From assembly GCF_003334335.1 (NCBI RefSeq), contig NZ_QOWQ01000001.1: a DNA stretch of 64,000 bases. One strand, written 5' to 3'. Below, in pieces: positions 40,801 to 43,800 of this stretch (the stretch's first letter is position 1; the number at the start of each line of letters is the position of its first letter). The DNA is from Escherichia coli. Lineage in GTDB: Bacteria > Pseudomonadota > Gammaproteobacteria > Enterobacterales > Enterobacteriaceae. Position numbers: made by a program.

Positions 40801-43800
40801 CGGGCCAGTGTATGGTAAACAGTGGCGCGCCTGGCCAACGCCAGATGGTCGTCATATTGACCAGATCACTACGGTACTGAACCAGCTGAAAAACGACCCG
40901 GATTCGCGCCGCATTATTGTTTCAGCGTGGAACGTAGGCGAACTGGATAAAATGGCGCTGGCACCGTGCCATGCATTCTTCCAGTTCTATGTGGCAGACG
41001 GCAAACTCTCTTGCCAGCTTTATCAGCGCTCCTGTGACGTCTTCCTCGGCCTGCCGTTCAACATTGCCAGCTACGCGTTATTGGTGCATATGATGGCGCA
41101 GCAGTGCGATCTGGAAGTGGGTGATTTTGTCTGGACCGGTGGCGACACGCATCTGTACAGCAACCATATGGATCAAACTCATCTGCAATTAAGCCGCGAA
41201 CCGCGTCCGCTGCCGAAGTTGATTATCAAACGTAAACCCGAATCCATCTTCGACTACCGTTTCGAAGACTTTGAGATTGAAGGCTACGATCCGCATCCGG
41301 GCATTAAAGCGCCGGTGGCTATCTAATTACGAAACATCCTGCCAGAGCCGACGCCAGTGTGCGTCGGTTTTTTTACCCTCCGTTAAATTCTTCGAGACGC
41401 CTTCCCGAAATTTTGCAACGTCCTGCAACGGCGTAAATAGTCCGGAAGATGCGCCGAAGAAATAGAAACTGGCCCTCGTCTTTTTTTCTCCTCGCTCCAT
41501 ACTGCCGGCATGAAAACACAACGTGGTTATACGCTGATTGAAACGCTGGTCGCGATGCTGATTTTGGTCATGCTAAGCGCAAGTGGACTCTATGGCTGGC
41601 AATACTGGCAGCAGTCGCAACGGCTATGGCAAACCGCCAGCCAGGCGCGGGACTATTTGCTCTATTTACGTGAAGATGCCAACTGGCATAACCGCGACCA
41701 CAGTATCAGCGTTATCAGGGAGGGGACGTTATGGTGCCTTGTGAGTTCCGCTGCTGGGGCCAATACCTGTCATGGCAGTTCACCATTGGTCTTTGTGCCA
41801 CGCTGGCCCGAAGTCGAAATGAGCGACCTGACACCTTCGCTTGCTTTCTTTGGCCTGCGCAATACCGCATGGGCCGGGCATATTCGCTTCAAAAACTCAA
41901 CGGGCGAGTGGTGGCTGGTGGTTTCGCCGTGGGGAAGACTCCGGCTTTGTCAGCAAGGAGAAACAGAAGGATGCCTGTAAAAGAGCAAGGTTTTTCTCTG
42001 CTGGAAGTGTTGATTGCTATGGCGATCAGTAGCGTATTGTTGCTGGGGGCGGCACGCTTTCTGCCTGCGTTACAGCGTGAAAGTTTAACGAGCACCCGTA
42101 AGCTGGCGCTGGAAGATGAAATCTGGCTGCGGGTATTTACCGTCGCGAAGCATCTCCAGAGGGCGGGTTATTGTCATGGCATCTGTACCGGCGAAGGGCT
42201 GGAAATTGTCGGACAGGGTGACTGTGTCATTGTGCAGTGGGATGCGAACAGTAACGGTATCTGGGATCGCGAACCGGTAAAAGAGTCCGACCAGATTGGA
42301 TTTCGTCTGAAGGAGCATGTGCTGGAAACGCTACGCGGTGCGACATCCTGTGAAGGTAAGGGCTGGGATAAAGTCACTAATCCGGATGCCATCATTATCG
42401 ACACTTTTCAGGTCGTACGTCAGGATGTCAGCGGCTTCTCGCCGGTGTTGACGGTTAATATGCGTGCTGCCAGTAAGTCTGAACCGCAAACCGTGGTGAA
42501 TGCCAGCTATAGCGTGACAGGATTCAACCTGTGAACCGCGAAAAGGGTGTTTCGTCACTGGCTCTGGTCCTGATGCTGCTGGTTTTGGGTAGTTTGCTAT
42601 TACAAGGAATGAGCCAACAGGATCGCAGTTTTGCCTCTCGCGTGAGCATGGAAAGTCAGTCATTGCGCCGCCAGGCCATCGTTCAGTCGGCGCTGGCGTG
42701 GGGAAAAATGCACTCCTGGCAGACGCAGCCAGCAGTTCAGTGCTCGCAGTACGCTGAAACCGATGCCCAGGTTTGTTTGCGTTTACTGGCAGATAATGAA
42801 GCCTTATTGATTGCCGGTTATGAAGGCGTTTCGTTGTGGCGAACAGGCGAAGTCATTGATGGAAACATTGTTTTTTCGCCACGCGGCTGGAGCGATTTTT
42901 GTCCGCTGAAAGAGAGGGCGTTATGTCAGCTTCCCTGAAGAATCAACAAGGCTTTAGCCTGCCGGAGGTAATGTTGGCGATGGTGTTGATGGTGATGATT
43001 GTCACTGCGTTATCGGGTTTCCAGCGAACATTAATGAACAGTCTTGCCAGCAGAAACCAGTACCAACAGCTCTGGCGGCATGGCTGGCAGCAAACGCAAC
43101 TGCGCGCGATTTCGCCACCTGCCAACTGGCAGGTCAACCGAATGCAGACATCGCAGGCGGGATGTGTCAGCATCAGCGTTACGCTAGTTTCACCCGGGGG
43201 CAGAGAAGGCGAGATGACCCGCCTGCATTGCCCGAATCGTCAGTAGTCAGGAGCCGCTATGTTAAGGGTCTACCATTCCAATCGTCTGGACGTGCTGGAA
43301 GCGTTGATGGAGTTTATTGTCGAACGCGAACGGCTGGACGATCCTTTCGAACCAGAGATGATTCTGGTGCAAAGTACCGGTATGGCACAGTGGCTGCAAA
43401 TGACCCTGTCGCAAAAGTTTGGTATTGCGGCAAACATTGATTTTCCGCTGCCAGCGAGCTTTATCTGGGATATGTTCGTCCGGGTGTTACCGGAAATCCC
43501 CAAAGAGAGCGCCTTTAACAAACAGAGCATGAGCTGGAAACTGATGACTCTGCTGCCGCAATTGCTGGAGCGCGAAGACTTTACCCTGTTGCGGCATTAT
43601 CTGACTGACGATAGCGACAAGCGAAAACTGTTCCAGCTTTCCTCAAAAGCGGCGGACCTGTTTGACCAGTATCTGGTCTATCGTCCGGACTGGCTGGCAC
43701 AGTGGGAAACAGGACATTTGGTTGAAGGGCTGGGAGAAGCACAGGCCTGGCAAGCCCCGTTGTGGAAGGCGCTGGTGGAATATACCCATCAACTCGGGCA

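What the first reader, a model, noticed from the sequence alone, without database searches (positions are those of the whole stretch)
41510..43258. Pseudopilin-like ppdA-ppdB-ygdB-ppdC operon placed directly upstream of recC
Four overlapping genes encode proteins with type IV prepilin-like N-termini. They end 12 nt before recC, with no terminator between them. Their function is poorly defined, and the read-through arrangement suggests co-transcription with the RecBCD nuclease genes.
Basis: partly seen in the sequence, partly recalled or inferred. Interest (0 to 1): 0.3.

Follow-up and report, generated by a model that had tools for sequence, protein, structure and literature searches.

The report
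E. coli minor-pilin operon abutting recC
This is the well-known E. coli ppdA-ppdB-ygdB-ppdC gene cluster, which encodes the minor pilins that start assembly of the competence-type type IV pilus, sitting 12 bases upstream of recC; that layout is already published, and the one less ordinary thing is a short invariant DNA block inside ppdC that may be recC's own weak promoter.

Summary
Window 41510-43246 holds ppdA, ppdB, ygdB and ppdC with 10-, 4- and 16-nt overlaps. A 12-nt spacer carrying an AGGAG ribosome-binding site follows, then recC at 43259. I found no intrinsic terminator at the junction. RefSeq annotates the same coordinates, and the region is in 5426 of 5426 complete E. coli genomes.

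The function is not poorly defined. Papers describe these four proteins as the minor pilins of the Sxy/CRP-induced PpdD type IV pilus, orthologous by synteny to Haemophilus comNOPQ, and able to prime pseudopilus assembly. Their position next to recC was published in 2006 and again in 2025, and one paper already lists a ppdAB-ygdB-ppdC-recC operon. Read-through into recC is plausible from the layout but was not tested here.

recC is unlikely to depend on read-through. RecBCD transcription is considered constitutive, whereas the Sxy-dependent genes are silent in culture. In 55 of 80 related loci I also found two invariant blocks inside ppdC, CAGACA-N17-(TGt)CAGCAT, 85 nt before recC. They are conserved even at synonymous sites (permutation p = 2e-5). 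I read this as a candidate embedded weak recC promoter; that is an inference.

Verdict: already known, low interest.

The parts
41346..41374 (+). Intrinsic terminator of the lgt-thyA unit: stem CCGACGC / GCGTCGG, loop CAGTGT, then seven T
   Evidence: My scan gives a hairpin of -14.5 kcal/mol followed by seven T. The hairpin is visible in the fold of the intergenic region (z = -2.64). In related genera the stem is kept through different stem sequences, e.g. CCGGCGCC/GGCGCCGG and CCGGCACC/GTGCCGG. The built-in terminator scan missed it.
41375..41509 (+). ppdA upstream region with conserved blocks. These are TTCC (41402-41405); TTGCAAC (41413-41419) followed by a second TGCAAC (41424-41429); a -10-like AATAGT (41436-41441) 17 nt after TTGCAA; and CATACT (41498-41503) 6 nt before the ppdA ATG. 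The candidate asymmetric CRP-S core is TTCCC-N6-TTGCA (41402-41417).
   Evidence: Based on an alignment of 38 Enterobacteriaceae intergenic regions. No site comes within 2 mismatches of the symmetric TGCGA-N6-TCGCA. The E. coli CRP-S motif is reported to be asymmetric, with one weak half-site (PMC6728893). Sxy induction of this operon is taken from the literature (PMC12616744). The site assignment is my inference.
41510..41980 (+). ppdA: 156-aa prepilin-type minor pilin with weak GspH / ComGD resemblance
   Evidence: NF007800 E = 1.1e-74; TIGR02532 N-terminal domain; weak TIGR01708 GspH hit. N-terminus is [11 protein letters not shown]. Matches the RefSeq annotation.
41971..42534 (+). ppdB: 187-aa prepilin-type minor pilin with weak GspJ / PilW-class resemblance
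   Evidence: NF007848 E = 4.2e-98; TIGR02532; weak GspJ hit. Weak sequence match to the Thermus pilin TTHA1219 (E = 0.035), which is structurally GspJ/XcpW-like according to PMC5131608.
42531..42938 (+). ygdB: 135-aa DUF2509 protein with a GTG start. Pilin fold, Gly at -1, but no Glu5.
42923..43246 (+). ppdC: 107-aa prepilin-type minor pilin
   Evidence: NF007660 E = 3.2e-65; TIGR02532. Pfam PF07963 and PF12528 occur on fused homologues. N-terminus is ...NQQG|FSLPE.
43145..43174 (+). Invariant nucleotide element inside ppdC codons 75-84. It consists of CAGACA (43145-43150), a 17-nt variable spacer, then the invariant 14-mer GATGTGTCAGCATC (43161-43174). The 14-mer contains TG (43165-43166) and CAGCAT (43168-43173). 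Candidate weak extended -10 promoter for recC.
   Evidence: Both blocks are identical in 55 of 80 related loci, always 17 nt apart, and lie 85-129 nt from the recC ATG. Of 120 conserved degenerate codons across the four ppd genes, only 8 keep the same codon in at least 90% of sequences, and 6 of those 8 are here (permutation p = 2e-5). No conserved RNA structure (0 compensatory pairs). No Rfam match. No second copy in the window. The promoter function is an inference.
43247..43258 (+). 12-nt ppdC-recC spacer TCAGGAGCCGCT carrying the recC Shine-Dalgarno AGGAG (43249-43253). ppdC and recC are in the same reading frame.
   Evidence: Sequence. The same 'TAG + 12 nt' arrangement occurs in 40 of the 77 loci in which the gap could be measured, with AGGAG or a one-base variant (GGGAG, TGGAG) in each, and in every one of them ppdC and recC share a frame.
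43259..46627 (+). recC, the gamma subunit of exodeoxyribonuclease V (RecBCD)
   Evidence: NF008289 score 2129 bits; TIGR01450. Matches the RefSeq annotation.

Best explanation
The region is the E. coli ppdA-ppdB-ygdB-ppdC operon. It encodes four small pilin-fold proteins. Three have the canonical prepilin-peptidase motif, and YgdB lacks Glu5. By the literature, these are the minor pilins that form the priming or tip complex for assembly of the PpdD type IV (competence-type) pilus, and they are switched on by cAMP-CRP together with Sxy.

The four cistrons overlap, which would allow translational coupling. The last one ends 12 nt before recC, with no intrinsic terminator between them. Any RNA polymerase that reaches the end of ppdC therefore most likely continues into recC (inferred).

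The ppdA promoter is silent without Sxy, yet RecBCD is made constitutively at a few molecules per cell. recC therefore most likely also has its own weak promoter. The best candidate is the invariant CAGACA-N17-(TG)t-CAGCAT block inside ppdC, 85 nt upstream of the recC start (inferred).

Shown here: gene identities, overlaps, absence of a terminator, conservation of synteny and of the junction, purifying selection, the pilin fold of YgdB, and synonymous-site invariance of the block. Taken from papers: the minor-pilin function, Sxy induction, and constitutive RecBCD expression. Inferred: read-through and the embedded promoter.
For: Identity: NCBIfam equivalog hits, RefSeq annotation with identical coordinates, and presence in 5426 of 5426 E. 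coli genomes.

Function, from papers: PpdAB-YgdB-PpdC prime PulG assembly (PMC5131608). They are listed as the minor pilins of the PpdD pilus system (10.1101/856302). They are Sxy-regulated and orthologous by synteny to comNOPQ (PMC1635313; PMC12616744).

Junction: no terminator. lgt-thyA-ppdABygdBppdC-recC-ptrA synteny holds in 71 of the 80 related Enterobacterales loci, and all four ppd homologues lie upstream of recC in 71. The gap is 36 nt or less in 62 of the 77 loci where it could be measured.

Independent recC expression: RecBCD transcription is constitutive and recC is treated as its own operon (PMC12342828). CRP-S genes are not expressed under laboratory conditions (PMC3330819). The invariant block shows synonymous-site conservation at p = 2e-5, and it includes non-preferred codons (ACA, GTC; preference from general knowledge), so codon bias does not explain it. 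In families where the gap is 80-200 nt, the gap carries a conserved -10-like (G)GTAGAGT / TACAGT. Two genera that lack the block have CAGACA/CAGGCA-17-TACACT 29 nt before recC.
Against: I obtained no transcript data. The transcription-start tables I could open did not list recC or ppdC.

The candidate promoter is weak by consensus: 4 of 6 in the -35, 3 of 6 in the -10, plus TG. The strict sigma-70 scan does not call it.

Complete invariance of its non-consensus positions is more than a promoter normally needs. The block could instead be an operator or an RNA-level element. The 14-mer can form a 5-bp hairpin.

No good CRP-S match was found upstream of ppdA.

Rho-dependent termination or RNA processing between ppdC and recC cannot be excluded from sequence alone.
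Confidence: 0.75

Rival explanations
1. Single obligate operon. recC has no promoter of its own and is transcribed only as the fifth cistron of a ppdA-initiated mRNA, or of read-through from thyA.
For: The gap is 12 nt with no terminator, and the genes are on the same strand. One paper lists a ppdAB-ygdB-ppdC-recC operon (PMC3936743). No consensus-grade sigma-70 promoter lies inside the ppd genes.
Against: The Sxy-dependent genes are silent in culture (PMC3330819), whereas RecBCD is constitutive and recC is described as its own operon (PMC12342828). A strong, conserved thyA terminator limits read-through from upstream. A promoter-like, synonymous-site-invariant block sits inside ppdC. In related families, recC is separated from ppdC by 80-200 nt, and by 1-1.5 kb in two loci.
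Confidence: 0.1
2. Neighbours only. ppd transcripts do not reach recC in vivo because of Rho-dependent termination or endonucleolytic processing in the 3' part of ppdC. The juxtaposition would then be inherited synteny without regulatory meaning.
For: The RecBCD field treats recC as a separate operon. The invariant block could be a processing or termination signal rather than a promoter. Rho-dependent sites cannot be seen with these tools.
Against: ppdC is translated to within 12 nt of recC, and the cistrons overlap, which leaves little untranslated RNA for Rho to load on. The exact TAG + 12 nt + Shine-Dalgarno junction is kept in 40 loci. No RNA structure is supported by covariation.
Confidence: 0.12
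3. Decaying relics. The ppd genes are cryptic, non-functional remnants in E. coli, and only recC matters at this locus.
For: Natural competence and PpdD piliation are not seen in wild-type laboratory cultures. The ppd proteins diverge 5-10 times faster than their neighbours.
Against: The region is present in 5426 of 5426 genomes, and intact genes are annotated in the records listed. dN/dS is 0.06-0.31. All four genes, with their overlaps, are kept across Enterobacterales. Functional assays are reported in the literature.
Confidence: 0.03

Closest known systems
Haemophilus influenzae comNOPQ (HI0938-HI0941), the Sxy/CRP-S competence operon upstream of recC
   Same: Four small prepilin-type genes sit directly upstream of recC in the same orientation. 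The operon belongs to the Sxy-dependent competence regulon. Orthology to ppdAB-ygdB-ppdC was proposed from synteny (PMC1635313; PMC12616744).
   Different: Sequence similarity is too low for BLAST. In Haemophilus the genes are required for measurable DNA uptake and transformation, whereas E. coli shows only very low uptake, and only with artificial Sxy expression. I did not examine Pasteurellaceae loci myself.
Core minor pilins and minor pseudopilins: FimU-PilVWX of Pseudomonas type IV pili, and GspH-I-J-K (PulHIJK) of type II secretion
   Same: A four-gene set of pilin-fold proteins, one of which lacks Glu5 (YgdB, like GspK/PilX). PpdA is weakly GspH-like and PpdB weakly GspJ-like by HMM. The YgdB model matches GspI and GspK cores. 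PpdAB-YgdB-PpdC are reported to replace PulHIJK in priming PulG assembly.
   Different: YgdB (135 aa) is much smaller than GspK (about 280-330 aa) and lacks its large inserted domain. No PilY1-like adhesin gene is adjacent. Family-specific HMM scores are far below cut-off, so the one-to-one assignment to the H/I/J/K classes is not established here.
ppdAB-ygdB-ppdC-recC operon, as listed in the literature
   Same: The same five genes, on the same strand, in the same order.
   Different: The paper I could read treats it as an operon without showing a joint transcript. The RecBCD literature describes recC as a separate operon.

Membership tests
Type IV prepilin-like proteins (class III signal peptide, TIGR02532 / PF07963) | Short basic leader ending in Gly(-1), then a hydrophobic N-terminal helix with Glu at +5 | tested here: met
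   PpdA G|YTLIE, PpdB G|FSLLE and PpdC G|FSLPE all hit TIGR02532 at E 1.9e-5 to 4.2e-7, above its 16.3-bit cut-off. YgdB has Gly(-1) and the hydrophobic helix, but Ala at +5 and no TIGR02532 hit. So the feature is met by three of the four proteins.
Type IV prepilin-like proteins (class III signal peptide, TIGR02532 / PF07963) | Pilin fold: a long N-terminal alpha-helix packed on an antiparallel beta-sheet | tested here: met
Type IV prepilin-like proteins (class III signal peptide, TIGR02532 / PF07963) | Cleavage and N-methylation by a prepilin peptidase | not testable with these tools
   Needs biochemistry. The names 'prepilin peptidase-dependent protein' come from annotation.
Core minor-pilin set that primes pilus or pseudopilus assembly (GspHIJK / FimU-PilVWX type) | Four co-oriented, tightly linked pilin-like genes, one lacking Glu5 | tested here: met
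   Overlaps of 10, 4 and 16 nt. YgdB lacks Glu5. The arrangement is kept in 71 of 80 related loci.
Core minor-pilin set that primes pilus or pseudopilus assembly (GspHIJK / FimU-PilVWX type) | Each member assignable to the H, I, J or K class by sequence or structure | tested here: inconclusive
   Only sub-threshold hits were found: PpdA-GspH 18.7 bits against a cut-off of 80, and PpdB-GspJ 20.8 bits against 64.85. PDB sequence searches returned nothing or only marginal hits. YgdB matches both GspI and GspK cores.
Core minor-pilin set that primes pilus or pseudopilus assembly (GspHIJK / FimU-PilVWX type) | Required for, or able to prime, fibre assembly | not testable with these tools
   Literature only: Cisneros 2012 as cited in PMC5131608, and inclusion in the reconstituted PpdD pilus system.
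Sxy/CRP-S competence regulon (comNOPQ orthologues) | CRP-S site (TGCGA-N6-TCGCA; in E. coli the asymmetric TGCGA-N6-TTCCA) in the promoter | tested here: inconclusive
   No site within 2 mismatches of the symmetric core lies in 41327-41509. A conserved TTCC...TTGCA pair at the right spacing (41402-41417) is a candidate weak, asymmetric site.
Sxy/CRP-S competence regulon (comNOPQ orthologues) | Induction by Sxy plus cAMP-CRP | not testable with these tools
   Reported by Sinha 2009 and Jaskolska & Gerdes 2015, as quoted in PMC12616744. I could not open the primary papers.
Sxy/CRP-S competence regulon (comNOPQ orthologues) | Position directly upstream of recC, in the same orientation | tested here: met
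   True in the window. All four ppd homologues lie upstream of recC in 71 of 80 Enterobacterales loci. For Pasteurellaceae this is taken from the literature.
Polycistronic operon including recC | Same strand, short gap, no intrinsic terminator | tested here: met
   12-nt gap, with no hairpin plus T-run.
Polycistronic operon including recC | A single transcript spanning ppdC and recC | not testable with these tools
   I reached no transcript data. The papers disagree: operon, separate recC operon.

The most novel reading that the evidence does not exclude
The invariant CAGACA-N17-GATGTGTCAGCATC block inside ppdC (43145-43174) is a previously uncharacterised cis-regulatory element. The most likely form is an embedded weak extended -10 promoter; an operator is the alternative. 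It would set the constitutive, few-molecules-per-cell level of RecC across Enterobacteriaceae. On top of this, the terminator-less junction would let Sxy-induced pilus transcription raise RecC during the competence state.
Probability: 0.3. Interest if true: 0.4.

Novelty: already known. Interest (0 to 1): 0.14.

Why it matters
The locus itself is textbook E. coli and adds nothing new. The remaining open point is how recC is transcribed. RecBCD dosage is tightly limited and matters for DNA repair, recombineering and phage defence. Yet the papers I could read either call recC its own operon or list it as the fifth cistron of the ppd operon, and neither shows a mapped promoter. A synonymous-site-invariant, promoter-like block inside ppdC gives a concrete target for mutation. 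If Sxy-driven read-through is real, it would link DNA-uptake machinery to the enzyme that degrades or recombines incoming DNA.

Tried and rejected
- **Symmetric CRP-S search.** TGCGA-N6-TCGCA with up to 2 mismatches gave nothing in the ppdA upstream region, and window-wide counts were below chance.
- **Built-in promoter/terminator scan.** It found no relevant site. It also missed the obvious thyA terminator, so I wrote my own scan.
- **Rfam.** The E-value search over 41200-43500 gave no match.
- **RNAalifold on the ppdC 3' end and recC start.** 20 species gave -8 kcal/mol and 0 compensatory pairs, so I rejected a conserved RNA structure. I also rejected a longer hairpin, ATGCAGACA/TGTCAGCAT, because its outer 3 bp vary without compensation.
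- **Other explanations for the invariant block.** An antisense ORF (start at 43173) and a +2-frame ORF (start at 43162) were rejected because conservation stops after 4 codons. There is no second copy of the 14-mer in the window.
- **Transcription-start and operon tables.** Conway 2014 has no supplements held as text. Yan 2018, Kim 2012 and Mendoza-Vargas 2009 list no recC or ppdC entries.
- **Primary papers not held.** Sinha 2009, Finch 1986, Hickson 1984, Dykstra 1984, Thomason 2015 and Kroeger 2013 were unavailable.
- **Uninformative literature searches.**
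Full report
**What is there.** The six-frame ORF list and the raw sequence show five co-oriented genes on the + strand. ppdA is at 41510-41980, ppdB at 41971-42534, ygdB at 42531-42938 (GTG start), ppdC at 42923-43246, and recC at 43259-46627. They are preceded by lgt and thyA and followed by ptrA. The ppd cistrons overlap by 10, 4 and 16 nt. After the ppdC TAG come 12 nt (TCAGGAGCCGCT) containing the recC Shine-Dalgarno sequence. A megablast against complete E. coli genomes finds the 2.1-kb region in 5426 of 5426 genomes. RefSeq annotates exactly these coordinates and names, and K-12 MG1655 is identical across the junction. All five proteins match their NCBIfam equivalog models far above cut-off.

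**Are the genes alive?** dN/dS against E. coli, E. albertii, Citrobacter and Raoultella orthologues is 0.06-0.31 for the ppd genes, against 0.00-0.09 for lgt, thyA and recC. The ppd genes evolve 5-10 times faster at the protein level but remain under purifying selection. This excludes the 'relic' reading.

**What is already known.**
- Cameron & Redfield 2006 (PMC1635313) noted that four similar-sized 'prepilin peptidase dependent' genes lie next to recC in both Pasteurellaceae and Enterobacteriaceae, and on that basis treated them as orthologues of the Haemophilus competence genes now called comNOPQ.
- A 2025 paper (PMC12616744) repeats the conserved position upstream of recC in the same orientation. 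It states that the E. coli operon is Sxy-regulated, with ppdA the most strongly induced gene (citing Sinha 2009 and Jaskolska & Gerdes 2015).
- PMC5131608 cites Cisneros 2012 for the result that PpdAB-YgdB-PpdC can prime PulG pseudopilus assembly in a pulHIJK mutant.
- A preprint lists the four proteins as the minor pilins of the E. coli PpdD pilus assembly system.
- Esquerre 2014 already writes 'ppdAB-ygdB-ppdC-recC' as an operon (PMC3936743).

**Terminators.** The built-in scan reports no + strand terminator near the junction, but it also missed the thyA terminator, so I scanned again myself. The only convincing hairpin plus T-run is the thyA terminator at 41346-41374 (-14.5 kcal/mol, seven T). 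There is no run of 4 or more T between 42901 and 43400, and the junction does not fold better than shuffles. Intrinsic termination between ppdC and recC is therefore very unlikely. Rho-dependent termination cannot be assessed here. There is also no clear terminator between recC and ptrA.

**Comparative anatomy.** I used RecC as an unbiased anchor and retrieved 80 Enterobacterales loci.
- The full lgt-thyA-ppdA-ppdB-ygdB-ppdC-recC-ptrA order is detectable in 71 of them. All four ppd homologues lie upstream of recC in 71.
- The ppdC-recC gap could be measured in 77 loci. It is exactly 12 nt in 40 loci ('TAG', then an AGGAG-type Shine-Dalgarno, with ppdC and recC in one frame). It is 7-36 nt in another 22 loci. 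It is 80-204 nt in eleven loci from Erwinia, Pantoea, Yersinia, two Serratia and one Enterobacteriaceae MAG. Two other loci have gaps of 56 and 65 nt (L068, L072). It is 1-1.5 kb in two uncultured Erwinia loci.
- The long gaps carry a recurring -10-like (G)GTAGAGT / TACAGT, in several cases with a -35-like hexamer 16-18 nt upstream. In the two long-gap Serratia loci they carry GC-rich palindromes instead.

So the tight junction is a feature of Enterobacteriaceae proper, and elsewhere recC appears to have its own upstream control region.

**The unexpected part.** When I aligned the 340 nt upstream of recC, a fully conserved stretch stood out inside ppdC. A codon-level test over 57 loci followed. 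Of 120 conserved, degenerate codons in the four ppd genes, only 8 keep the same codon in at least 90% of sequences. Six of those 8 are ppdC codons 75, 76 and 81-84: CAG ACA ... TGT GTC AGC ATC (permutation p = 2e-5). A pattern search shows CAGACA, exactly 17 variable nucleotides, then CAGCAT, embedded in an invariant 14-mer GATGTGTCAGCATC. This occurs in 55 of the 80 related loci. The distance between the blocks is constant, while the distance to the recC ATG varies from 85 to 129 nt.

In the window the element lies at 43145-43174, which is NC_000913.3 2,962,542-2,962,513 on the minus strand. ACA and GTC are not preferred E. coli codons (general knowledge), so codon bias does not explain the invariance. 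ppdC also shows lower dS than its neighbours.

I tested and rejected several explanations:
- a conserved RNA structure: 0 compensatory pairs, and the outer bases of the possible longer hairpin vary without compensation;
- an Rfam family;
- overlapping ORFs in other frames, because conservation stops after four codons;
- a repeated motif elsewhere in the window.

The geometry fits a weak extended -10 sigma-70 promoter: a -35-like CAGACA (4 of 6), a 17-nt spacer, TG at -15/-14, and a -10-like CAGCAT with A2 and T6. Two genera that lack the block have CAGACA/CAGGCA-17-TACACT 29 nt before recC. A caveat: invariance of the non-consensus positions exceeds what a promoter usually needs, so an operator or a short RNA hairpin (GAUGU-GUCA-GCAUC) remains possible.

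**Putting it together.** RecBCD transcription is considered constitutive, the enzyme is present at fewer than 10 molecules per cell, and the RecBCD field describes recC as its own operon (PMC12342828). No tested condition switches on sxy or the Sxy-dependent genes in E. coli cultures (PMC3330819), and a strong conserved terminator closes the upstream thyA unit.

recC therefore almost certainly has a source of transcription other than the ppdA promoter, and the invariant block is the best candidate. At the same time, nothing in the sequence would stop a Sxy-induced ppd transcript from continuing into recC. The most likely picture is a nested arrangement: an inducible ppdA-to-recC read-through unit laid over a constitutive, weak recC unit that starts inside ppdC. 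Both transcriptional statements are inferences. The gene identities, the anatomy and the conservation results are shown.

**ppdA upstream region.** I found no good match to the symmetric CRP-S core. The E. coli CRP-S motif is reported to be asymmetric with one poor half-site (PMC6728893). An alignment of 38 intergenic regions shows these conserved blocks: TTCC, then TTGCAAC followed by a second TGCAAC, then a -10-like AATA(G/T)T, and CATACT ending 6 nt before the ppdA ATG, with no Shine-Dalgarno sequence. I mark TTCCC-N6-TTGCA (41402-41417) as only a candidate CRP-S core.

**Verdict.** The finding is already known, with low interest (0.14). The embedded invariant block is the only item worth a follow-up experiment.

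Noticed in passing
window 43145-43174 (inside ppdC): CAGACA-N17-CAGCAT, with the invariant 14-mer GATGTGTCAGCATC, is identical in 55 of 80 related loci, including at synonymous sites (p = 2e-5). It is the only such cluster in the four ppd genes. It is a candidate embedded recC promoter or operator.
   Followed up: yes
window 43244-43261; proteins P0007 and P0118: ppdC and recC are in the same reading frame, separated only by TAG plus four codons. Public assemblies contain ORFs at 99% identity that carry both PpdC domains (PF07963, PF12528) and the RecC N-terminus. These would be stop-codon read-through variants or assembly or gene-calling artefacts.
   Followed up: no
window 41510-43246 compared with L002, L003, L008, L019: The ppd proteins diverge 5-10 times faster than ThyA, Lgt and RecC. 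For example, YgdB is 86% identical between two E. coli strains, against 98% for RecC. Within E. coli, ppdB and ygdB show dS of 0.58-0.72 against 0.26 in the upstream lgt and thyA genes (recC 0.46). This hints at old alleles or recombination at surface-exposed pilus components.
   Followed up: partly
window 41402-41441 and 41498-41512: The thyA-ppdA spacer has conserved TGCAAC direct repeats 10 bp apart. It also has a conserved CATACT hexamer ending 6 nt before the ppdA ATG, and ppdA has no Shine-Dalgarno sequence. ppdA might therefore be translated from a leaderless or near-leaderless mRNA.
   Followed up: no
L058, L059, L064, L069-L081 (ppdC-recC gaps); L060 5027-6000; L077 4434-6000: In most Erwinia, Pantoea and Yersinia loci and in two Serratia loci, recC is 80-204 nt from ppdC. 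The gap carries a recurring (G)GTAGAGT/TACAGT -10-like motif, or GC-rich REP-like palindromes in the two Serratia loci. Two uncultured Erwinia loci have about 1 kb and about 1.6 kb inserted between ppdC and recC.
   Followed up: partly
window 46628-46802 (recC-ptrA spacer): No convincing intrinsic terminator follows recC, so transcription entering recC might continue into ptrA-recB-recD.
   Followed up: partly
window 41346-41374: The built-in terminator scan did not report the textbook-like thyA terminator (7-9 bp GC-rich stem plus seven T). Negative results from that scan should not be trusted on their own.
   Followed up: yes
proteins P0129, P0143, P0154, P0161: Some E. coli assemblies carry ORFs of about 230 aa that fuse YgdB and PpdC (PF10713 + PF07963 + PF12528). 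A frameshift in the 16-nt overlap would produce this.
   Followed up: no
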